A stretch of DNA of 47,382 nucleotides from the IMG/VR virus record IMGVR_UViG_2684623189_000004; one strand, given 5' to 3'. A program made the translations under genes and the position numbers. Shown piece after piece: positions 1,281-43,020 of this stretch. The stretch's first letter is position 1. Each line of letters starts with the position of its first letter. This DNA is from a virus (lineage: Duplodnaviria > Heunggongvirae > Uroviricota > Caudoviricetes). The notes beneath the pieces were generated by a model. That model ran no database searches, was not told where the DNA came from, and worked only from the letters and a program-made list of their open reading frames with translations.

Positions 1281-1285
1281 CATCC

Positions 1286-1535
1286 AACCGCAGCACGTTC
1301 TTGCTTAAGACGTGCTGCGGCATAATCCCAATGATTACTCCCTGACAGGGTTCGTAGGCCACTCAATATCAGGTGCAGTTGATGTATCAACACGGTTCAG
1401 CAACACCCGATACTTTTTCCAGGCTTCCAGCAATGAGGTTTCTTCCTCCGTTGCAATTTCCAGATCTGCAGCATCCTGAAGCGGCGCAATATGCTCACTG
1501 GCTACCTGCATCAGGTTGTTTTTTGTTTCTTCCGC
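1286..1535. repeat. direct repeat copy 2 (3' end of intact tfa plus downstream hairpin)
   Basis: matches 236..485; perfect 10-bp stem CCGCAGCACG/CGTGCTGCGG at about 1287..1319. Confidence 0.7.
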
Positions 1536-1919
1536 CTCCCGGATCCGGAACATTTTTTCTGCTTCCGTATCCTTCACCCAGGCTGTGCCGTTCCACTTCT
1601 GAAACTCCCCTTCCGGCGATAACCAGGTAACATTTTCCGGTAACGGACCGAGTTCAGAAATAAATAACTCGTCCCCTGACGCTACGTCATAAACCGTTTT
1701 ACCCCGATGGTCTTCAACGAGATGCCACGATGCCTCATCACTGTTGAAAACAGCCACAAAGCCAGCAGGAATATCTGGTGGTGCAATATCGGTACTGTTT
1801 GCTGGCAGACCTGTATGAGGCGGAATATATGCGTCACCTTCACCAATAAATTCATTAGTTCCGGCCAGCAGATTATAAATTTTTATGGTCCGTGCTTGTT
1901 CACTCATTCTGAATGCCAT
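1335..1919 (-). CDS. tfa: tail fiber assembly protein Tfa
   Basis: 194 aa; immediately downstream of stf; resembles lambda Tfa as recalled. Confidence 0.85.
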
Positions 1920-4900
1920 TATGCAAGCCTCACAATATAGTTAAATGCGATGTTTTTGACGGTGTTTTCCGCGTTACCAGCAGCGTTAACGGTGATGGTG
2001 TGTCCATGTGAACCAATCGCAACGGAGTGCGTATGCGCACCAATACCTACAGTATGTGCATGTGCGCCAGAACTTGCTGCAGTACCAGACAGCGAGTGGG
2101 TATGAGCACCTGCTGACTGTGTCTGAATACGTTGATAATACGATCTACGGGAAGAAGTCCCCGGGCTTACTTGATACTGTGAATCCTGGACATAAGTGAA
2201 CCCACCGCCATCATAAAATGCTAACGCAGAACCGCCGCCTCCTGGCCAACGAATACCATTACCATGAGTATGATCACCGGCAGACCCCGTAGAGCCACTC
2301 AGACTGTGCGTATGCGCCCCGGTGTTATTCGTGGATTTGGTTCCGTAATCAAACGACGATGTGTTTTTCGTCCCCAAATCCGTACTGGATGCGCTGGCGC
2401 TGTGGGTGTGCGATTTAATGCCGTCCTGTTCCTGAGACAATACGGCACGACCACTGGCGGGTTTGCCCTTAATCGTCCAGCCACGCATATCAGGGATCAC
2501 GCCTGACGGATAAGCGGCTGCAAGTTTCGGGTATGCAGATTTGTCAAAAGTCTGCCCCTGCATCAGGGCATAGCCAGACGGAACGGTATCTGATGGCCAC
2601 GGGATTGGTGCGCCAGGCGGATAAAACTGCTCTGATGGCGTATAGAGTGAATAAACTGTACCGTCCGTTAACCCTTCCGGCTTATTAGCAGAATATGCTG
2701 GTGACGTATGAATCGTCACGCTGGCATTACTGGTATAATCCCATTGAATATTTACACCAGTCGCATAATTTCCGATTGCAACGTAAATATCGTAAGTATC
2801 ACCAGATGTATTGACCCAGGCAAAATTTGTAAACCCTGTCGATGTGCGCTGCCATAAAGCACCAGTAATCCCCTTCGGATTACCATTACCTGCACGCAAA
2901 ACAAGTTCAGATATACCTGCCTGTTGAGGTGACCCCACGTTAAATCCCGCACCACCAATCAACGTAATTGAAACAACAGAACTCGCCTGTGGCATGGTTA
3001 CCGTTGCTAATTTGAACCAACCAGCACCACCGCTGAATGACATTGTTGTTGAGTTAAGCGTACCAATATCTTTCGGCGTCAGTGTTATATCCGCTGAAAG
3101 CGCCTTACCATTCACCTTACGGGCAGAAGGTACCCGACCATTCGCATTATTATTAGCTGCTTTCACTGCTTTCGGTGTCGCGGCAAGCGTTTCAGATGCG
3201 CTGTTGGTTGCACTACTGAGCTGGACAATTCCTTTTTGTGCTGTCGTAGCGTCCTGAGCAGTATATTTCCCGTTAGCAAGGTCATAGGCTGCCTTTACCG
3301 ACTTTGGCGTTGCCGCCAGCATTTCAGATGTGCTGTTGGTTGCACTACTGAGCTGGACAATTCCTTTTTGTGCTGTCGTAGCGTCCTGAGCAGTATATTT
3401 CCCGTTAGCAAGGTCATAGGCTGCCTTTACCGACTTTGGCGTTGCCGCCAGCATTTCAGATGTGCTGTTGGTCGCGTTGCTAAGCTGAACTATCCCTTTC
3501 TGTGCTGTCGTTGCATCCTGTGCGGTGTATTTCCCGTTAGCCAGCTCATACGCGGCCTTAACGGCTTTTGGCGTTGCCGCCAGTGACTCGGAAGTGCTGT
3601 TAGTCGCACTGCTGAGCTGTACTATCCCCTTTTTCGTCGTGCTCGCATCCTCAAGCGCCACGGCGGATGCAATATCCTCTGCCCGTTTTGCCGCTGTCTC
3701 AGCGCGCGTTGCCGCGGATTCCGCCGTACTTTTGCTCTGAGCTGCCGCCGTCGCACTGCCAGCTGCCTCTGTCGCCTTCGTGGATGCCGTCGTGGCGCTG
3801 CCCTTTGCTGCTGACGCCTGTCTGGTCGCCTCATCTTTTGAAGCAGACGCAGATGATGCCGATGACGCCGCCGAACTGGCGGACGATGCGGCAGCCGTTT
3901 TTGAGGATTCTGCGCTGGTTTCCGACGCTTTCGCGTTCGTCTTGGATGTCTTCGCTGCGGAAGCAGACCTCGCTGCTGCGCTGGCCTGTACAGCGGCTTC
4001 GCCAGCCTTCGTTGTGGCTGTTGAAGCAGACGATGCAGCACTTTCTGCCGATTTTCCGGCGGCGGTGGCACTGGCTGAGGCCTGCCCGGCACTTGTTGAC
4101 GCGGCACTGGCAGATAATGCAGCCGCTGTTTTTGAGTCTGCCGCAGCTGAGGCGCTCTGTCCCGCTGCCGTTTCAGAAGACCTGGCGTTCGTCTCGGACG
4201 TTTTTGCCGCCTTCGCAGAATTTGCTGCCGCCGTTGCCGAGGAAGCTGCGCTGCTGGCGCTCGAGGCTGCGTTCGTTTCTGATGATTTTGCCGCCTCTTT
4301 TGAAGCCGACGCATCCCGTGCTGAAGTGGCTGCTTCTGACGCTTTCGTGGTCGCGGTGGATGCAGAAGTGGCTGCTGATTGTTGTGACGCTGCGGCATTC
4401 GTTTCTGACGTTTTCGCGGCACTGGCGCTGGTAGCTGCCGCGCTTTTTGATGACTCTGCAGCAGCAGCACTTTTTGCTGCTTCACGGGCCTTTGTCGATG
4501 CCGTTCCTGCGCTGGAAGACGCTGACTGAGCCGACGACGCGGCCTGTCCGGCTGACGTGCTGGCGGCACGTGCTGAGGCTGCAGCATCGGTTGCATGAGT
4601 TGCCGCCTCGCTGGCTGATGCACTGGCATCGCTGGCTGATTTTTTCGCGGCTGCCGTATTCTGTGCAACCGCGGAGGCGTTACGTGACACCTCTTCCACC
4701 ATCTGCTCAAAGCGGCGCAGTGCCTCCGGTCGGACATCATCCTCCGTCATGGCACCGAGAAAATCATTCAGCGTACCTGGTCTGGAACCTTCATAGACGG
4801 TAATGGTCCCGGCATGTGAAGGCGGAAAACCTTCAACCAGCAGGGTGACGCTGTACTGACCATGCTCAACATCCATGCTGTAACGTCCGGCTTCATCCGG

Positions 4901-5177: not shown

Positions 5178-5777
5178 TCAGAAACGGTATCCGATACCAA
5201 CAATAAATGCATCCGTTCGCCAGTCGCCACTACCGGAACCTTCATAAGCAAGGTCAATGGTCACGGATTCGGTCGGGTTAAACTGCACGCCAGCCCCCCA
5301 CGCCAGAGACGTGTTGCTGTGGCGACCGTCATCACTTCCGGTCAGCACATCGTGCGTTTTCCCCTTGTTGTCAGTTACGCGGAGATAATCCCCGGAGAAA
5401 GTCGACACACGGCTGTAAGCCACACCCGCCATCGAATACGCGCTGAACCATTCATTCACGCGTACAGACGGCCCCGCCATCACGCTGAACCAGCGGTTAC
5501 GCACGGAATCTTCATGCCAGCGGGTATCGCTGTAGTGCGTTTTTTGCTCATCCTCAGCATTGGCATAACTGAAGGACGTAATCAGCCCCAGCGCGTCCGT
5601 AAACTCATAACGGTATTTCACGTTAATCCCGTTCAGATTATCGCTGCCGGGAGCGTTCGTACGGGCATGAAGATACCCCGCGCTCAGTGTGGACTGATGT
5701 TCAGACGCCCATGCAGGCGCACCGGATACGGACAGACAGATGGCTGCGGACAAAATGACTGCACAAACTTTACGCAT
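5178..5777 (-). CDS. lom: outer membrane protein Lom (Ail/Lom family)
   Basis: 199 aa with signal peptide and C-terminal aromatic residue; position between J and stf as in lambda. Confidence 0.85.
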   Translation of the reverse strand: MRKVCAVILSAAICLSVSGAPAWASEHQSTLSAGYLHARTNAPGSDNLNGINVKYRYEFTDALGLITSFSYANAEDEQKTHYSDTRWHEDSVRNRWFSVMAGPSVRVNEWFSAYSMAGVAYSRVSTFSGDYLRVTDNKGKTHDVLTGSDDGRHSNTSLAWGAGVQFNPTESVTIDLAYEGSGSGDWRTDAFIVGIGYRF

Positions 5778-5844: not shown

Positions 5845-8800
5845 TCAGCTGATACTGATGCCTGCGGTGGCTTTCTTCATCACCACAACCAGCAAATCGC
5901 TGATACTTGCTGTGGGATACCAGTTATTCACCAGCCATGCTGACACCGAAAACTCCAGCGTCATGTGGCCGCGACCAGCTGGCATATCAATAACACCACT
6001 GTAAATCAGCGTATTATCCAGCGCGGTACGGTTATAAATTTCAGCACCGTTTTTCCGTACTATCAGGCGGCATGACGAATAAATATCGTTATTCTCCCGC
6101 TCATGTTTAGCGCCGCTGAATGCCACCGCCGGAATAACAATCTGCCGGTCAAACGGCTGATCGTCATAAACCCTGACGGTGATGGTCCCTGATGGCCACC
6201 GTTCCGGTGCACGGGAGTCCCGGGGGAAAGCTTTGCCCACTGTTTTAACGAGATCGCCTTCAATCTGGTTGGCGGACAATTTTCCCAGAACCCGACAGTT
6301 CTCGTTAATCGTGACGTTGTTGAGCGTCCCGGAGTTCGCATTCACGTTACCGCTGATATCGGCATTTTTCGCCGTCAGCCGCCCGTCCGGTGTCAGGGAA
6401 AATGCCGGAGGATTACCGCCGCTGGTAATGGTCGGAGCCGTCAGGCGTTTCAGGAACACGTCGTTCATGAATATCTGATCGCCCTGACCAACAAACATCG
6501 GCTTTGTGTTGCCATTCGCAGGATTAATCATCGCAATCCGGTCAGCAGCCAGAAGCACCTGACTCTGCATACCTGCTGGCGTATTCTCAATACCGGCTCC
6601 GATACCCGCAATATAAAGGCGTCCGTCCTTCATCTGCTGCAGTTTCACGGCCCACATGCTGTTCAGGTTATTATTTGTATCAACCTGAACTTTCTGTATC
6701 TGCTGGATTGCCGCACTCTGGTCTTCCAGTTTTTTATTGACGGTCTGCGTGATTTCATTGCTGACATTCGTAATGGACGTCCTGATTTCAGCCAGGTCCG
6801 GCGCAAGCTGACCGTTATCAATCTGCGTCCACAACTCCTGGGCCAGATGTGTTTTCCCGATTTCTCCTTTGAAAAAATCCAGGTAACCTTCCGCATCATC
6901 GCTCGCCCGACCGACAGCCTCCACGAATGCCGATTTGCCAACGGTGTTCACACTGCGAACGTAAAAATAATAATCATGGCCCGGTTTGATATTGATACTG
7001 GCGGCTATCCAGTACAGCGCCGTACCAAGATAGCGGGCTGTGGTTTCAACCTGCCTGATATCGGTAATCCGCTTTTCCGAGAACCAGAACTCAAACTGTA
7101 CCGTCGGGTCATAAACAGCAAGATGCGGCGTGGCGGTTATCTGAAAATAGCCCGGCGTCAGCTCAATCCTCGACGGTGCTGCCGGTGCGGCAATCCGGAA
7201 CGATACCGACGCCGGATCGCCCTGCTGCCCCCGGGCATTTACCGCCCGGACTGTCAGCCTGTAGTTCCCCAGCGCCAGTTGCGTGAAGCGGTATGTGGTT
7301 TCCGTCGTCCGGGCCGTGCTGACCAGTCGCTCACTGCCGTCGTCCGCTGTTACGGTCAGACGGAGCAGGAAGCTCACGCCCTTCACCACCTTCGGTGTGT
7401 CCCATCGCGCCAGCACCTGATATTCCCCGCTGTCTGCAGTGACTTCGGCGGTCAGGTGCTGCACTGCTGGCGGCGTGACACCATTCACCGTGCCGCTCTG
7501 GTCACCGTCAAAGTGCGCCCCGTTATCCACGATGGCTTCTTTCTCCGGTACATGCTGCACGGCGGTGATGGCATACGTGCCGTCATCGTTCTCACGGATA
7601 CTCACGCAGCGGAACAGGCGCTGGCGCAGCGTCGGCAGCTTCAGCCCCCACACGCTGTATTCTGCAACGCCGTCAGGAACACGGCTCACTTTCACCTTCA
7701 CGCCGTCGGTGACGGACTGGACCTCCACGCTGACCGGATTACCCTGACCGTCAACCAGGCTTATCAGCGTGGTACCGGAGGATGGCAGCGTGATTTCACG
7801 GTCGAGCGTCAGCGTCCGGGTCTGGCTGTTCACCGCCAGCACGCGACCACCGGTGCTGATACCGGCATAGTCATCATCGCAGATTTCAATGACATCGCCC
7901 GGTACATGGCGAAGCCCTTCAGCACCCACGCTGAAATCCACGGTCTGCGTCTCCAGCAGTTCCGTTTTAATCAGCCACAGCCCGGCGCGGTGTGCCTGCC
8001 CCCGGCTGGTACAGCCAAAGGCATCCATCTTCGTGACGTTACGACCGTAACGGGCAATGGCCTGCGTGTCCTCCACAAGCTCTGTCGCCGTCTCCCAGCC
8101 GTTATCCGGGTCAATCCAGTTCACCTCAACAGCATTATGGCGGTCTTTCAGGGCGCTGAAGCTGTAGCGGAACGGCGCACCATCATCCGGCATCACCACA
8201 TTACTGCGGTTATAGGTCCACACCTTATCCGACGGTCGGTCCTGCACGAACGTCAGCGTCTGCCCGTTCCATACCGGCATACAGCGCATCGCCGAGCAGA
8301 AATCACTGAGAACATCCCACGCCTTGCGCTGTGTGGTCAGGTAGGCATTACAGGTGATGCGCGGCTCCGTGCCACCAAAGCCATCCGGCACCGACTGGTC
8401 GCAATTCTGGCCGATGACATACAGCGCCCATTTGTCCACATCCGCCGCACCGAGACGCTTCCCCATGCCGTAGCGCGGATGGGTCAGCATATCCCACAGA
8501 CACCAGGCCATGTTGTTGCTGTATGCTGGCTTAAACGTTCCGTCCCAGATACCGCTGTATTGCCGCGTCTGCGGGTTATAGTTCGACGGCACCTGCAGAA
8601 TGCGCCCGCGAAGATGATAATTACGGCTCACCTGCTGGCTGCCGAACTGTTCCGAGTCCACCTGCACGCCGACCAGTGCCGTGTTCGGGTAGCACTGTTT
8701 CACATCGATGATTTCGGTGTATGACGACCAGAGCGTTTTGTTCTGCAGCTGGTCTGTGGTGCTGTCCGGCGTCATTCTGCGCATCCGGATATTAAACGGG

Positions 8801-26622: not shown

Positions 26623-27087
26623 TTATCTGAGGCATTGCTCTCGAATGTATAGCTGTGCCCCTTCAAGTTGTTTTTGCATTATTATCAGTCGCGCTCTGAG
26701 GGTGAAATAATCCCGTTCAGCGGTGTCTGCCAGTCGGGGGGAGGCTGCATTATCCACGCCGGAGGCGGTGGTGGCTTCACGCACTGACTGACAGACTGCT
26801 TTGATGTGCAACCGACGACGACCAGCGGCAACATCATCACGCAGAGCATCATTTTCAGCTTTCGCATCAGCTAACTCCTTCGTGTATTTTGCATCGAGCG
26901 CAGCAACATCACGCTGACGCATCTGCATGTCAGTAATTGCCGCGTTCGCCAGCTTCAGTTCTCTGACATTTTTGTCGCGCTGGGCTTTGTAGGTAATGGC
27001 GTTATCACGGTAATGATTCAGCCCCAGACTAAGCGCACCACAGGCCACCAGCAGGGCAATGATGACCACGCACAGTACGCGGTTCAT
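26623..27087 (-). CDS. Rz: i-spanin Rz
   Basis: 154 aa; N-terminal TM; from [17 protein letters not shown] onward close to lambda Rz. Confidence 0.9.
26685..26867 (-). CDS. Rz1: o-spanin Rz1 (embedded in +1 frame of Rz)
   Basis: 60 aa; lipobox VVGC; proline-rich [15 protein letters not shown]. Confidence 0.85.
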
Positions 27088-27088
27088 T

Positions 27089-27187
27089 TCACCACCAGCG
27101 TATCTGACCGATGAAATAACCAGAGGCCATAATCACAAACACCAGCCAGATAAGAATGAACTTCCAGGTGGATAATTTTTCAGCCAT
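27089..27187 (-). CDS. hypothetical 32-aa single-TM peptide translationally coupled to Rz
   Basis: ATG preceded by GGGAGA (8-nt spacer); [32 protein letters not shown]; stop TGA 1 nt before Rz ATG; below ORF-track size cutoff. Confidence 0.3.
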
Positions 27188-27262
27188 CACTCGAATCTCC
27201 CGAATCAGTTTGCTAAAATCAAACACACTTTCTCCTTTGACTTTTCCGGAGTCAGGAAACAC

Positions 27263-27300
27263 AAAACCCCGCTTGGTGCCAACAAACGGGGTTTTTACTT
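27263..27300. terminator. hairpin with flanking T/A tracts between R and Rz (bidirectional terminator-like)
   Basis: AAAACCCCG-15 nt-CGGGGTTTTTACTTTTATT. Confidence 0.4.
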
Positions 27301-27385
27301 TTATTCACTTACGTTTCGCCACTTCGCAGGATTTCATGTTATCCGCCCGCGTGGCCATGCCTTATTTTTCAGCAAAATATTCTGC

Positions 27386-27919
27386 TTATCTGTCGATACC
27401 CCAGCACGCCAGCGCGCTCTCCTGGTCACGACGGGATACCTGACCGTAGCAGTTGTTTGAACGAATACGGCAGTCTCTGCCACCGTCCTTAATCCACCAG
27501 CGAATCGCCTCACACGCTCCCCTGCGATCACCTGCATTAATTCGTTTATAAAACGTCGACGGGAAACACTTACCGGGACCAATGTTGTACGGACAGAATG
27601 ACGCGATCCCCGCTTTCTGGGGTTCGCTCAATGGCACTTTGATGTTTTTCTCCACCCATGCCAGCGCCTTATCACGCTCAATGGCGTTGACCTGGTCGCA
27701 TTTTTCCTTCGACAGTTTCATACCGGGAAAAACGGGTTTTCCATCCACCATCGTGGCCCCCCGACAGATGGTCCAGTTGCCGGAACCATCGCGGTATGCC
27801 GTAGTGTGGTTACCCTCTTTTTCATCCAGAAACTGGTCAAGTATCTGAGGAGCTGATGCGCCTGCTCCAATCAGCGCCAGAACTGCAGCTGACAGGCCGT
27901 ATTTGATTTTTGCGTTCAT
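27386..27919 (-). CDS. R: SAR endolysin (T4-lysozyme-like, phage 21 R type)
   Basis: 177 aa; Gly/Ala-rich weakly hydrophobic N-terminus (YGLSAAVLALIGAGASAPQ) then E...D...T catalytic spacing (KEGNHTTAYRDGSGNWT). Confidence 0.85.
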   Translation of the reverse strand: MNAKIKYGLSAAVLALIGAGASAPQILDQFLDEKEGNHTTAYRDGSGNWTICRGATMVDGKPVFPGMKLSKEKCDQVNAIERDKALAWVEKNIKVPLSEPQKAGIASFCPYNIGPGKCFPSTFYKRINAGDRRGACEAIRWWIKDGGRDCRIRSNNCYGQVSRRDQESALACWGIDR

Positions 27920-28024
27920 GGATATTTATCAGGATTTATCGGTTTCTGAACCCTGGATATGTTTATCTGTCCCGGCCTGTTGAATCAGGCGGGGAAAAGG
28001 TAAAGACAATCAAGAGGATTATTT

Positions 28025-28297
28025 ATGGACAATAGCACCATTTCTCTACAGGAGTTGCTCGACTGCATTTCCAGGCTTCGGGATGATGTAAATGCCCTCA
28101 CTGTTGCATTTTCACATCTGGCCTTATCAATTCCCAGGGAGCAAATGCTGCCAACGCTGGCATCCATTCATTTTGAATCACGCAACCCCAAATGGTCCCA
28201 GGAACAACAAAATTCTTTCAAGTGGCTGGCGGCATTGCTGGAAGAAAATTATGCTGGCAAAACTACCATTTCGGCGGAGTCTTCAGGGAACCAGTAA
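28025..28297 (+). CDS. hypothetical protein antisense within the lysis cassette
   Basis: 90 aa; AGAGGA RBS 6 nt upstream of ATG; overlaps 3' end of 28263..28607 on the other strand. Confidence 0.3.
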   Translation: MDNSTISLQELLDCISRLRDDVNALTVAFSHLALSIPREQMLPTLASIHFESRNPKWSQEQQNSFKWLAALLEENYAGKTTISAESSGNQ

Positions 28298-28607
28298 TCC
28301 TTCCCGGTAGCTTTCCTTTGTAGGTTATCCATACATTCTGCGCCTCTAAAATTACGGGGCGCTTTTCCGGCGACTGCTCATCCCCTTCACATAACCCGGC
28401 AGCGACATCCAGGAAGACCTGTCTGATGCTCCTTCTGGCCGCTGCCTCATAAAACTCCAGCGCAGCACCTTCAACACGGTCCAGCGAGATGTCCAGGTCA
28501 AAAATTTCACCGTCAAAGCGTTCTTTGTCCTGTAATGCTAAAGTTACCGTAACTTTATTCTCAAAATTGCGGATCCCTTTCACAATCAGTTCATAGTTTT
28601 GAGTCAT
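28263..28607 (-). CDS. hypothetical protein between holin and endolysin (YdfR/DUF1327-like by position)
   Basis: 114 aa; starts 5 nt after S stop; Qin has ydfR between holin and lysozyme as recalled. Confidence 0.5.
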   Translation of the reverse strand: MTQNYELIVKGIRNFENKVTVTLALQDKERFDGEIFDLDISLDRVEGAALEFYEAAARRSIRQVFLDVAAGLCEGDEQSPEKRPVILEAQNVWITYKGKLPGRITGSLKTPPKW

Positions 28608-28611
28608 TGAA

Positions 28612-28827
28612 TTACTCTCCCCGTGCCGCCTTACGACGGTCCTCTCTGATTTTGAAATACAGGTTAGTCAGATATGTCAGCAGCCCAAACAGCAGACTCC
28701 CCAGCACGCCTATTGCCGCCCACTGAGACGGGGAAACCCTGTCCAGCAACTGCAGGAACCAGTAGCCCGTTCCCACCGCTGACGTGGTGTATGACACACC
28801 TGTTGTGATTTTTTCCATCTGGTCCAT
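28612..28827 (-). CDS. S: pinholin S (phage 21 S21 type) with dual start Met1/Met4
   Basis: [10 protein letters not shown]...[36 protein letters not shown]; two TM segments; ORF track extends 35 codons upstream. Confidence 0.85.
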
Positions 28828-29095
28828 ACCCCGTCTCCCGTTATCCGGAAGCTGAAAACAATAAAAAAGCCACCAGTTAACTACTGATGGCTCTGATAAC
28901 TCATGCAAGCGTCTCAGACGACCCACTGACACTACCGGTGAGTTTAACGATACCTTCCATTTGACTGGCTCACTTTTTATGATGATGCCGGTGCATTTAT
29001 CTCCAGCGCCAGACTTTCTATCTCAACGCCATACGTTACATTTTTGGTAATATCCATCAGCGTCAGTGCATTTAGTCCCACTGCCAGACTGTCTT

Positions 29096-29323
29096 TTATG
29101 GCCTGGAATGCCGGGCCAGTACGATGACGTAGTACCAATCCGGCTCAGTTGCACCACTGACCACCACATCACCTTCTGCTGCAATCGCCTGCATCAGGGT
29201 ATAAGGGGTTATGGCCACCGGACTACCAAACGGCTGCCAGCCCTCCTTCAGTTTTTGTGTCAGTCGTTTCGCAAGGTCTGACGGCGATACCGCCCTGACC
29301 ACGTCATAGTGTTTAAATGCCAT
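29096..29323 (-). CDS. hypothetical small protein upstream of holin
   Basis: 75 aa ORF; family not recognised. Confidence 0.4.
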   Translation of the reverse strand: MAFKHYDVVRAVSPSDLAKRLTQKLKEGWQPFGSPVAITPYTLMQAIAAEGDVVVSGATEPDWYYVIVLARHSRP

Positions 29324-29544: not shown

Positions 29545-29790
29545 TGCCCACAAGAAAACCCCTCCGGAGAGGGGCTAAAGCCGCGTATCTGTATCATCAT
29601 GCACATGGTGCCGGGTGCCTCCCGGTGAGTTCAGCCCGGTGCCACTAAACCCGCGTCATTCTCGTTTTGATAATCAGAGATTATACCGTCACCAGTCGCC
29701 CCTCCGCTCAGGGGGATTCACCATGCGAAATTTTTTTAACAAATGCCCAGTCTGACAGGCAACTGTCAACTTACTGAATTGTGAGCAACA
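29545..29790. repeat. diverged tandem repeat unit A (ends in GC hairpin plus T-tract on minus strand)
   Basis: shares CCCCTCCGGAGAGGGG, CATGGTGCCGGGTGCCTCCCGGTGA, GCCCCTCCGC.CAGGGGGATTCACCATG, CTGAATTGTGAG blocks with unit B. Confidence 0.6.
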
Positions 29791-30035
29791 TAGCATTTAA
29801 CGGGGAACCTGTTTTCTGCAGTAAAAAGGCCCACCGGAGCGGATGGGCCTGGAAGGATAGCGGTCATGTGATGCCGGTTTCCCGGTAACTCAGCACCGGT
29901 ATCTGAGTCAACGTTTTCTCTACTGGGTCATTTCCGATACGCCCTGCCTGCTGACAGGCTTTCATCACATCTGAAAATATAGCACCCTGACTGATACTGT
30001 AGTACCTAAGGTTCCAGAAACTGTGATGTATCCGG

Positions 30036-30265
30036 CACAGAAAAGCCCCTCCGGAGAGGGGCTGGAGAGTGGCGCTATGTGCCATTGCATGGTGCCGGGT
30101 GCCTCCCGGTGAATTCAGTACCAGCACCTGAATCCGCGATTATCCCATATACCTACTCGCTGATTGCCCCTCCGCACAGGGGGATTCACCATGCCAGTTT
30201 CTTTTAACAAACTCCCCGCAAACCAGACAACAGTCAACCGCCTGAATTGTGAGACATTTAAAAAA
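30036..30265. repeat. diverged tandem repeat unit B
   Basis: same blocks as unit A; immediately downstream (minus strand) of tRNA-Arg(UCU). Confidence 0.6.
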
Positions 30266-30298: not shown

Positions 30299-30375
30299 TG
30301 GCGCGTTGTACTGGATTCGAACCAGTGACCGATTGCTTAGAAGGCAATTGCTCTGTCCGGCTGAGCTAACAACGC
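30299..30375 (-). tRNA. argO: tRNA-Arg (anticodon UCU)
   Basis: 77 nt; 7-bp acceptor GCGTTGT/ACAACGC, anticodon loop CCTTCTAAG, T-loop GGTTCGAATCC, 3' CCA. Confidence 0.85.
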
Positions 30376-30388
30376 AGGATACAGATAA

Positions 30389-30466
30389 TGGACCGCCTTC
30401 GGGGACCCGAACTCCGCGCAACCAGCTTCGAAGGCTGGCGCTCTTTCCTGATGAGCTAATGGCGGT
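30389..30466 (-). tRNA. argN: tRNA-Arg (anticodon UCG), atypical stems
   Basis: anticodon arm CCAGC-CTTCGAA-GCTGG, D-arm GCTC...GAGC, encoded CCA; mismatches in acceptor and T stems; exact ends uncertain. Confidence 0.55.
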
Positions 30467-30472
30467 ATGTGA

Positions 30473-30548
30473 TGGTGGCCCTTGCTGGATTTGAACCAGC
30501 GACCTGGCGATTATGAGTCGCTCGCTCTCACCACTGAGCTAAAGGGCC
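30473..30548 (-). tRNA. ileZ: tRNA-Ile2 (anticodon CAU, lysidine type)
   Basis: 76 nt GGCCCTTTAGCTCAGTGG...CTCATAATCG...GGTTCAAATCC...GGGCCACCA; close to E. coli ileX as recalled. Confidence 0.85.
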
Positions 30549-42455: not shown

Positions 42456-43020
42456 CTAACCAACGAAGCTAAGGTTGGTAATTAAGGAGTTCTCCACGGG
42501 TGAGGTGGAGTGCGTGCGCCGGACACGGGTGAGCATCCGGCACTGACAGTTTACTGAAAGGATATTTCCCTGAAAAGTCAGACCATAACGCGAAAGCGCA
42601 CGGCGAGGTAGCTGGTTCATAGATAGCCTGTCGTTAAATTTTCGTCGACCGTGCGCTTCCGGTTGTGGCAATCCGCGAAATGGCGCGGCGGTAAGTATGG
42701 CGGGGTTATTCCTTCCACCGTTGAGGACACCGGGTTGTCAGGTTGACCATACGCTTAAGTGACAACCCCGCTGCAACGCCCTCTGTTATCAATTTTCTGG
42801 TGACGTTTGGCGGTATCAGTTTTACTCCGTGACTGCTCTGCCGCCCTTTTTAAAGTGAATTTTGTGATGCGGTGAATGCGGCTAAGCGCACGCGGAACAG
42901 TTAAAACCAAAAACAGTGTTATGGGTGGATTCTCTGTATCCGGCGTTAATTGTTAACTGGTTAACGTCACCTGGAAGCACCAGGCACCGCATCACAAAAT
43001 TCATTGTTGAGGACGCGATA
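42456..43020 (+). other. 565-bp non-coding, GC-rich, hairpin-dense region in the early-left operon (candidate structured RNA or regulatory element)
   Basis: no credible ORF on either strand; 10-bp stem AAGCGCACGG/CCGTGCGCTT, 9-bp stem GGGTTGTCA/TGACAACCC, 18-bp perfect inverted repeat at 42857..42874 and 42984..43001. Confidence 0.4.

What the first reader, a model, noticed from the sequence alone, without database searches (positions are those of the whole stretch)
27920..28611. Extra genes between pinholin and SAR endolysin, including an antisense ORF with a good RBS
S and R are separated by about 700 bp holding a 114-aa gene coupled to S (YdfR-like by position) and, on the opposite strand, a 90-aa ORF with an AGAGGA RBS overlapping it. 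An antisense gene inside a lysis operon is unusual.
Basis: seen in the sequence. Interest (0 to 1): 0.4.

Follow-up and report, generated by a model that had tools for sequence, protein, structure and literature searches.

The report
Opposite-strand moron gene inside prophage lysis cassette
Between the holin and the lysozyme of this E. coli prophage sit a known-family gene (YdfR) and, on the other strand, a real but uncharacterised 90-residue gene that arrived as a 308-bp insertion; this is an ordinary "moron" already annotated as hypothetical in about a fifth of complete E. coli genomes.

Summary
The lysis cassette runs on the minus strand: S21-type holin 28612-28827, YdfR/DUF1327 28263-28607, lysozyme R 27386-27919, Rz/Rz1. 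A 90-codon ORF lies on the plus strand at 28025-28297 behind an AGAGGA ribosome-binding site. It overlaps ydfR by only 35 nt, tail to tail; the rest fills a 343-nt ydfR-R gap.

orf90 is a genuine protein gene:
- It is intact in 32 of 33 distinct alleles.
- dN/dS is 0.18-0.38.
- Some alleles carry in-frame deletions.
- Homologues of similar length at 23-34% identity occur in Serratia (a conserved chromosomal gene between dinI and bssS), Sodalis and Citrobacter.
- The predicted fold is a confident three-helix structure.

It belongs to PHROG 2411 (unknown function; UniProt name "Ybl58"). RefSeq annotates it as hypothetical.

Related phages (606R7, PhiR40_1, BP-4795) have the same long YdfR directly before R. 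The segment 27964-28271 is therefore a 308-bp insertion. At least 80% of it is present in 1130 of 5426 complete E. coli genomes, BL21 included.

Best reading: a moron, probably expressed independently of the late operon, whose protein function is unknown and not tied to lysis. No promoter could be identified, and expression is untested. Interest is low to moderate.

The parts
28612..28827 (-). Class II (phage 21 S-type) holin, 71 aa, with two start codons at M1 and M4 (MDQM...)
   Evidence: Pfam PF04971, E 3.7e-32. RefSeq calls a 216-nt CDS, 'class II holin family protein'. The longer GTG-started ORF reaching 28932 is a listing artefact.
28263..28607 (-). ydfR, long form (114 aa, DUF1327). Its start lies 4 nt after the S stop codon.
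   Evidence: Pfam DUF1327, E 6.9e-44; phrog_406, E 2.7e-68. pN/pS is 0.39. The C-terminal 45 residues differ from K-12 YdfR but are shared with phages 606R7, PhiR40_1 and BP-4795.
27964..28271 (.). 308-bp insertion relative to related phages that have ydfR directly followed by R. It carries the orf90 5' region and codons 1-82 and replaces the last 3-5 codons of ydfR.
   Evidence: Alignment with 606R7, PhiR40_1 and BP-4795. GC is 45.5%, against 53-54% for R and S. At least 80% of it is present in 1130 of 5426 complete E. coli genomes.
28025..28297 (+). orf90 (phrog_2411; 'Ybl58'; RefSeq WP_001351274.1). A 90-aa acidic (pI 4.95) soluble protein predicted to form three helices.
28013..28018 (+). 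Shine-Dalgarno-like AGAGGA, 6 nt before the orf90 ATG
   Evidence: Read from the sequence. The purine-rich core is kept in the other alleles.
27970..27995 (+). Stable hairpin at the left edge of the insert, 29 nt upstream of the orf90 ATG. It is not followed by a U-run on either strand.
   Evidence: RNA fold of 27930-28030: -31.3 kcal/mol, z = -2.6. The lower stem is not conserved in the second commonest allele, so its significance is uncertain.
28340..28366 (+). Weak terminator-like hairpin (7-bp stem, 9-nt loop, UUUU) 43 nt downstream of the orf90 stop, inside the antisense of ydfR
   Evidence: The fold is not better than shuffles (z = -1.06), and the consensus scan did not call it. A possible 3' end for an orf90 transcript, unproven.
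27386..27919 (-). Lysozyme R (rrrQ-type) with a Gly/Ala-rich N-terminal segment (YGLSAAVLALIGAGASAP) and an E-x8-D-x5-T motif; SAR-endolysin-like
   Evidence: Pfam Phage_lysozyme, E 4.1e-24. The motif was read from the translation. Its 44-nt upstream region, 27920-27963, is shared with phages that lack the insert.
26623..27087 (-). Rz spanin, with Rz1 embedded at 26685-26867(-)
   Evidence: Pfam Phage_lysis, E 1.4e-52. The Rz1 ORF has a lipobox-like 'VVVGC'.

Best explanation
orf90 is a moron: a small stand-alone gene that was inserted once, in inverted orientation, at the 3' end of the long-form ydfR gene of an S21-holin/YdfR/lysozyme cassette. It has since spread and diverged with that cassette among Escherichia prophages.

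Its product is a real, selected, soluble protein of about 10 kDa with three helices. The family also lives outside lysis cassettes, so its function is most likely unrelated to the lysis mechanism. The likeliest mode of action is binding to a host or phage partner in the lysogen (inferred).

Because it faces the Q-dependent late operon, it cannot be expressed from the late promoter. It must use its own, so far unidentified and probably weak, promoter. The expected pattern is expression from the repressed prophage and occlusion by late transcription after induction (inferred).

The late transcript simply reads through the insert, and R keeps its original translation-initiation region.

Shown here: the ORF and its RBS, purifying selection, the family and its contexts, and the insertion boundaries. 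Inferred: independent expression, timing, and mode of action. The biochemical function remains unknown.
For: Real gene:
- 32 of 33 alleles are intact.
- pN/pS is 0.32 and the third-position excess has p = 0.006.
- Pairwise dN/dS is 0.18-0.38.
- Some alleles carry in-frame deletions of 2, 7 or 8 codons.
- A profile search finds proteins, most of them 81-108 aa long, in Citrobacter, Serratia, Sodalis, Chania, Gibbsiella and others. They share a conserved core, ELL..I..L...V..L..AFSYLAFS...ES.N...F..LA, and have variable tails.
- AlphaFold2 with 46 sequences gives pLDDT 83 and helices at 8-34, 38-52 and 59-81.

Insertion:
- Phages 606R7, PhiR40_1 and BP-4795 have the same long YdfR followed by R after 50-63 nt.
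- The junctions lie at 28271/28272 and 27963/27964.
- Residues 83-90 of orf90 are the antisense of pre-existing ydfR sequence, and they are exactly the part modelled as disordered.
- The insert has lower GC.

Independence from lysis:
- The Serratia orthologue sits in pyrC-dinI-X-bssS-solA.
- An E. coli paralogue sits beside an AIDA-type autotransporter on an island or plasmid.
- Sodalis and a metagenomic copy stand alone.
- The Citrobacter prophage copy has no DUF1327 neighbour.

Orientation:
- In the three independent prophage contexts seen, the gene faces the late genes. These are this cassette, the Citrobacter copy upstream of the holin, and the P0063 copy upstream of the terminase block.

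Definition of a moron, and the precedent of the P22 ant moron: PMC2629481.
Against: - No sigma-70 consensus promoter was found in 27920-28024, and there is no convincing terminator downstream.
- The upstream regions of family members share no visible motif.
- No expression data could be consulted, and literature searches for its identifiers found nothing.
- No homology or fold match gives any functional clue.
- In E. coli prophages the gene is always linked to long-form ydfR, so a functional tie to YdfR is not excluded by the E. coli data alone.
Confidence: 0.65

Rival explanations
1. Antisense or convergent-transcription brake. The main role of the insert is RNA-level. Plus-strand transcription from the insert runs into ydfR and S, with no strong terminator in between. 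By transcriptional interference or RNA pairing it lowers leaky expression of holin, YdfR or the lysozyme in lysogens, or tunes R:S stoichiometry after induction. The protein would be secondary.
For: - orf90 converges on ydfR with a 35-nt overlap.
- No consensus plus-strand terminator lies between 28297 and the S gene; there is only a weak hairpin at 28340-28366.
- The gene faces the late operon in all three prophage contexts.
- Precedent: the P22 ant moron modulates read-through into the tailspike gene (PMC2629481).
Against: - Selection acts on the protein: dN/dS is 0.18-0.38, in-frame indels occur, and homologues at 23-34% identity keep length and helix pattern.
- The family thrives where there is nothing to be antisense to, in the Serratia chromosome, an AIDA island and Sodalis.
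- No promoter was found.
- Q-modified late transcription is not expected to be stopped by a weak convergent promoter (established knowledge of lambdoid Q antitermination).
Confidence: 0.12
2. Lysis accessory or partner of YdfR. The orf90 protein acts in the lysis pathway or with YdfR. K-12 YdfR binds the RNase E catalytic half and co-purifies with RNA. orf90 might, for example, modulate YdfR or the timing of the pinholin/SAR-endolysin system.
For: - In E. coli the insert is found essentially only fused to the 3' end of long-form ydfR, and it travels with S+ydfR even when R is replaced, as in phiSTEC1575-Stx2k.
- The Citrobacter homologue is also adjacent to a holin.
- K-12 YdfR interacts with RNase E through residues 1-72 (PMC13232886).
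Against: - It lies on the opposite strand, so it is not co-expressed with the late operon.
- Viable phages with the same YdfR lack it.
- Family members occur without any DUF1327 or lysis genes.
- The linkage to ydfR is explained by a single ancestral insertion: the junctions are identical in all alleles.
Confidence: 0.1
3. Chance or decaying ORF. The plus-strand frame is open by accident or is a dying remnant. The apparent constraint would then come from something on the minus strand, because the minus frame that shares third positions gives pN/pS 0.27.
For: - The wobble-sharing minus frame scores as well as the plus frame and is open in many alleles.
- A minority of database entries are frameshifted or truncated.
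- No promoter was found.
Against: - The minus frame has two stop codons in this window's own allele and stops in others. It lacks a conserved start, and its Ser/Cys-rich translation has no homologues.
- The plus-frame protein has an RBS, a confident fold and distant homologues in other genera and contexts.
- Intact alleles are seen on more than 1000 contigs, against a handful for the broken ones.
Confidence: 0.03

Closest known systems
Lambdoid-phage morons, e.g. lambda bor (from my own knowledge: opposite strand, just downstream of Rz, expressed from the prophage) and the P22 'ant moron' (PMC2629481)
   Same: A gene present in some but not all otherwise collinear relatives. It is inserted in the late operon beside the lysis genes, on the opposite strand, with lower GC than its flanks, and is dispensable for phage growth because relatives lack it.
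   Different: - It sits between holin/YdfR and endolysin rather than after Rz or before the tailspike gene.
- No promoter or terminator pair could be recognised.
- Its product is a soluble three-helix protein of unknown function, not a lipoprotein or an immunity system.
- Its 3' end is borrowed from the antisense of the neighbouring gene.
PHROG family phrog_2411 / UniProt 'Ybl58' / RefSeq WP_001351274.1 (hypothetical protein)
   Same: orf90 is a full-length member (E 5.5e-55, residues 1-90 on a 90-position profile). The exact sequence is on at least 1000 contigs.
   Different: Nothing differs, since this is the family itself. The databases give no function. This work adds the chromosomal relatives, the insertion anatomy and the evidence for selection.
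YdfR of the K-12 Qin prophage (DUF1327; binds the RNase E N-terminal half, PMC13232886)
   Same: The 114-aa gene has the same position (after S, before R), the same family, and about 90% identical DNA over codons 1-69. That part covers most of the 72 residues to which the RNase E interaction was mapped.
   Different: From about codon 70 the C-terminal part is unrelated: 45 residues here against 34 in K-12. K-12 ydfR overlaps rrrQ by ATGA and has no orf90.
Extra genes inside Stx-phage lysis cassettes, e.g. ant between R and Rz in BP-4795
   Same: They show that lambdoid lysis cassettes tolerate inserted genes between their members.
   Different: Those inserts lie on the same strand as the late operon and at a different junction.
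Serratia chromosomal orthologue between dinI and bssS
   Same: Same protein family, with about 30% identity, the same length and the same helix pattern.
   Different: It is a conserved chromosomal gene with its own intergenic regions, not phage-borne. A perfect LexA box precedes dinI but none precedes this gene.

Membership tests
[quoted passage not shown] | Present/absent polymorphism between otherwise collinear related phages | tested here: met
   606R7, PhiR40_1 and BP-4795 have S-YdfR(long)-R without it. The junctions are defined at 27963/27964 and 28271/28272.
Moron | Own promoter and terminator (independent expression) | tested here: inconclusive
   No consensus sigma-70 site upstream and no consensus terminator downstream. 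There is only a weak hairpin plus UUUU at 28340-28366. The opposite orientation means it needs its own promoter if it is expressed at all.
Moron | Base composition different from the flanking phage genes | tested here: met
   The insert has 45.5% GC, against R 53.2%, S 54.2% and the window 51.5%. The difference is modest.
Moron | Expressed from the repressed prophage; no role in lytic growth | not testable with these tools
   Indirect only: isolated phages with the same cassette lack it.
phrog_2411 / Ybl58 protein family | Full-length profile match | tested here: met
   E 5.5e-55, residues 1-90 on positions 1-90 of 90. The Citrobacter, P0063 and Serratia relatives also match.
YdfR / DUF1327 (PF07041) | Pfam score above the gathering threshold | tested here: met
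   148.4 bits against a cut-off of 25, E 6.9e-44. RefSeq names it 'YdfR family protein'.
YdfR / DUF1327 | RNase E binding or RNA binding, as reported for K-12 YdfR | not testable with these tools
   Only the N-terminal 69 codons, which cover most of the mapped interaction region (residues 1-72), are conserved with K-12.
Phage 21-type pinholin (PF04971) | Family match, 71 aa, two hydrophobic segments and a dual-start motif | tested here: met
   PF04971, E 3.7e-32. The MDQM dual start and the two hydrophobic stretches were read from the translation. Pinholin function itself was not tested.
SAR endolysin | T4-lysozyme-type catalytic motif plus an N-terminal weakly hydrophobic Gly/Ala-rich signal-anchor-release segment | tested here: met
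   Phage_lysozyme, E 4.1e-24. The N-terminus MNAKIKYGLSAAVLALIGAGASAP and E-x8-D-x5-T were read. Membrane release was not tested.
Known cis-antisense RNA regulators or other RNA families | Match to a curated RNA family in the region | tested here: not met
   No Rfam match in 27386-28830 even at E <= 1.
Known anti-phage defence proteins (PADLOC) | Profile match | tested here: not met
   No match for orf90, YdfR or the Serratia orthologue at E <= 1.

The most novel reading that the evidence does not exclude
The phrog_2411/Ybl58 family is an unrecognised small regulator of the lysogen. It is chromosomal and sits next to dinI in Serratia. Lambdoid prophages have captured it repeatedly, and it is always placed head-on to the late/lysis genes.

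In this cassette it would serve as a safety device. Its product, its convergent transcript, or both would keep the holin-independent (SAR) lysozyme and the pinholin silent in the prophage state, or would couple lysis to a host stress signal.
Probability: 0.1. Interest if true: 0.55.

Novelty: new member of a known kind. Interest (0 to 1): 0.27.

Why it matters
The finding is mostly of housekeeping value.
- It shows that a widely annotated 'hypothetical protein' in E. coli prophage lysis cassettes, BL21 and UTI89 included, is a real, selected gene.
- It defines that gene as a 308-bp insertion and separates it from the lysis machinery.
- It links the gene to a conserved Enterobacterales family with no Pfam entry.

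If the gene proved to modulate lysis or YdfR/RNase E, it would be a new accessory of the pinholin/SAR-endolysin pathway. Nothing here indicates that.

The cassette also offers a natural pair for testing how an inverted gene inside a Q-antiterminated operon affects downstream expression: phages with and without the insert, with identical flanks.

Tried and rejected
- **Function by homology.** Pfam, NCBIfam and PADLOC gave nothing for orf90. The only NCBIfam hit was anti-silencing Mip at E 0.081, well below the cut-off. Scanning all 46 family members against Pfam gave only scattered sub-threshold hits.
- **Promoter and terminator.** The consensus scan found none for orf90. By eye I found only poor hexamers. 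Upstream regions of seven family members share no motif.
- **SOS control.** There is no LexA box near orf90 or before the Serratia orthologue; only dinI has one.
- **Insertion mechanism.** No target-site duplication or terminal inverted repeats occur at the junctions.
- **RNA families.** There is no Rfam match in the region.
- **Minus-strand coding alternative.** Rejected because of stop codons and the lack of homologues.
- **Literature.** Nothing was found for WP_001351274, ybl58, phrog_2411 or ECOK1_1435.
- **Searches that failed or added nothing.** IMG/VR scans with distant members added no new contexts.

Full report
**Where the window comes from.** The 951 bases around the finding are 100% identical to a prophage of E. 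coli phylogroup-B2-type strains (UTI89, ATCC 11775, S88, APEC O1 and others). RefSeq annotates, in late-operon order on the window's minus strand:
- antitermination protein
- DNA methyltransferase
- three tRNAs
- a DUF1737 pseudogene
- class II holin
- YdfR family protein
- a hypothetical protein on the other strand
- lysozyme (rrrQ)
- lysis protein (Rz)
- two plus-strand genes (DUF1398, YnfO)
- terminase

**Checking the observation.** The ORF table and the sequence give these features:
- holin S at 28612-28827(-), PF04971, E 3.7e-32
- a 114-aa gene at 28263-28607(-), starting 4 nt after the S stop codon
- a 90-aa ORF at 28025-28297(+), with AGAGGA 6 nt before its ATG
- lysozyme R at 27386-27919(-)
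- Rz and Rz1 at 26623-27087 and 26685-26867(-) (Pfam results)

The 114-aa protein is a bona fide DUF1327/YdfR member (E 6.9e-44). There is one nuance: orf90 overlaps ydfR by only 35 nt at the 3' ends. Most of it lies in a 343-nt non-coding gap of the late transcript between ydfR and R.

**Is orf90 a gene?** I collected 80 IMG/VR loci that carry it. They align to the 693-nt S-R interval almost without gaps, at 87-100% identity.
- Among 33 distinct sequences the plus-strand frame is open in 32.
- Variable sites fall 11:11:24 over codon positions (p = 0.006). pN/pS is 0.32, like the neighbouring ydfR at 0.39; the other frames give 1.07-1.53.
- The minus frame that shares third positions scores equally well at 0.27, as expected on geometric grounds. 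But it contains two stop codons in this window's own allele, has no conserved start, and translates to Ser/Cys-rich sequence.
- Pairwise dN/dS against more distant alleles is 0.18-0.38 at pS up to 0.38.
- Alleles with in-frame deletions of 2, 7 and 8 codons exist.
- An exhaustive profile search, followed by an indexed profile search, found proteins of similar length at 20-60% identity. They come from Citrobacter, many Serratia species, Sodalis, Chania, Gibbsiella, Chimaeribacter and Acerihabitans.
- The 46-sequence alignment shows a conserved core and variable tails.
- With this alignment AlphaFold2 predicts three helices (8-34, 38-52, 59-81) at mean pLDDT 83, with a disordered tail at 81-90.

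orf90 is a real protein-coding gene. It is already catalogued as phrog_2411 (unknown function), 'Ybl58' in UniProt and WP_001351274.1 in RefSeq.

**Anatomy of the locus.**
- Comparison with the K-12 Qin prophage: Qin has essQ-ydfR-rrrQ with ydfR overlapping rrrQ by ATGA and no orf90. Homology to the window breaks at about ydfR codon 70 and resumes exactly at R's ATG. K-12 therefore carries a different C-terminal module of YdfR.
- Comparison with phages 606R7, PhiR40_1 and BP-4795: these encode the same long YdfR (63-99% identity over residues 1-112/113) followed by R after only 50-63 nt.
- The four-way alignment places the difference precisely. Window 27964-28271 (308 nt) is extra. It replaces the last 3-5 codons of ydfR (PKW* here, PESQP* or PLA* in the others), and homology resumes about 44 nt upstream of R's ATG.
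- The insert carries the orf90 5' region and codons 1-82. Codons 83-90 and the stop codon are the antisense of the pre-existing, conserved ydfR 3' end. That matches the disordered, non-conserved tail.
- The insert has 45.5% GC, against 53-54% for S and R.
- No target duplication or terminal repeats mark the junctions.
- At least 80% of the insert is present in 1130 of 5426 complete E. coli genomes, nearly always annotated 'hypothetical protein | YdfR family protein'. These include the Rac remnant of BL21.
- In phiSTEC1575-Stx2k the S-ydfR-orf90 block, with its 105-nt upstream region, is joined at R's ATG to a different holin/holin/M15-peptidase cassette.
- The identical junctions everywhere indicate one ancestral insertion. 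The orf90 alleles are more diverged (pS 0.18-0.38) than the adjacent ydfR (0.09-0.14 in four of five pairs), so the region is old and mosaic.

**Contexts of the family elsewhere.**
- Serratia: a monocistronic gene in the conserved chromosomal locus pyrC-dinI-X-bssS-solA, seen on at least 1000 contigs.
- Sodalis and an unidentified metagenomic bacterium: it stands alone among metabolic genes.
- E. coli: a copy with 65% identity lies beside an AIDA-type autotransporter on an island or plasmid.
- A Citrobacter freundii prophage: it lies on the opposite strand directly upstream of holin-lysozyme-Rz, with no DUF1327 gene.
- A further prophage (P0063): it faces the terminase/late block.

The protein therefore does not depend on YdfR or on lysis genes. 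Prophages that carry it have it head-on to the late operon in the three independent contexts seen.

**What could not be established.**
- The consensus scan found no sigma-70 promoter upstream of orf90 and no terminator after it.
- Folding shows a stable hairpin at 27970-27995 in the putative 5' region (z = -2.6) whose lower stem is not conserved. It also shows a weak hairpin plus UUUU at 28340-28366, no better than shuffles.
- Upstream regions of family members share no motif.
- There is no LexA box at orf90 or at the Serratia orthologue, although dinI next door has a perfect one.
- Nothing hints at function: no Rfam family, no Pfam, NCBIfam or PADLOC match, and no structural neighbour beyond generic helical hairpins.
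- Full-text searches for its identifiers found no paper.

- I commit to this reading. orf90 is a moron whose selected function lies in its protein. That protein acts outside the lysis pathway, probably in the lysogen, and probably by binding a partner, as small helical phage accessory proteins commonly do.
- The late transcript reads through the insert, and R keeps its own initiation region.
- The steps on expression and mode of action are inferences.
- Rivals: an RNA-level brake on the lysis genes (0.12), a YdfR or lysis accessory (0.10), and a spurious ORF (0.03).
- For the neighbouring gene, a 2026 study reports that K-12 YdfR binds the catalytic half of RNase E through residues 1-72 and co-purifies with RNA (PMC13232886). 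Only codons 1-69 of that N-terminal part are conserved here.

**Verdict.** The arrangement is common, already annotated, and of a known kind. Its position between holin/YdfR and endolysin, and its borrowed 3' end, are minor curiosities. Interest is low to moderate.

Noticed in passing
window 27088-27385 (ORF 27089-27262, minus strand; hairpin 27263-27295): A second gap inside the lysis cassette, between R and Rz (298 nt, 44% GC). It holds a small membrane-protein ORF matching phrog_6632 (E 1.4e-29). The profile starts at residue 13, so the real product is about 45 aa. Its stop codon abuts the Rz ATG. A 13-bp hairpin flanked by an A-run and a T-run precedes it. RefSeq does not annotate it in UTI89. 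Chlobot and 783R2 annotate small ORFs at this position, and a second E. coli prophage (L106) has the identical ORF.
   Followed up: partly
window 28263-28400 vs L082 (K-12 Qin) 4055-4160: YdfR exists with two unrelated C-terminal modules: 103 aa in K-12 and 114-116 aa here and in many phages. The switch point, at about codon 70, lies close to the end of the 72-residue fragment found to bind RNase E in PMC13232886.
   Followed up: partly
window 29546-29755 and 30033-30223 (minus strand); tRNAs 30299-30548 (minus strand): Two copies of the sRNA family STnc100 (161 and 136 bits) and three tRNA genes lie between the Q region and the holin. ARAGORN calls the tRNAs Arg-tct, Arg-tcg and a CAT-anticodon tRNA; RefSeq annotates the last as Ile.
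   Followed up: no
L084 (phiSTEC1575-Stx2k) 1285-3303: This Stx2k phage carries two lysis modules in tandem. S21-type holin + YdfR + orf90 comes first, then a terminator-like hairpin, then holin/holin/M15 metallopeptidase. Homology to the window stops exactly at R's ATG.
   Followed up: partly
L089 (Serratia odorifera) 5576-5591 and 6001-6285: The chromosomal orthologue of orf90 lies between dinI and bssS. dinI has a perfect LexA box (CTGTATAAATACACAG); the orthologue has none.
   Followed up: partly
window 28025-28297 vs 28263-28607 in loci L083, L085, L104, L106: orf90 alleles are two to four times more diverged at synonymous sites than the adjacent ydfR in the same loci (pS 0.18-0.38 vs 0.09-0.14). 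This suggests allele exchange or an older age for this segment.
   Followed up: no
window 35069-35243, 42795-42846, 1378-1576: Other RNA elements of the prophage region: a sok antitoxin RNA (hok/sok), DicF and IS009.
   Followed up: no
window 29096-29323 (minus strand): A 75-aa DUF1737 ORF (E 2.1e-16) upstream of the holin. RefSeq flags it as a truncated pseudogene. In BP-4795 the DUF1737 protein at this position is far longer (its 1,938-nt CDS gives about 645 aa), so this copy is a remnant.
   Followed up: no
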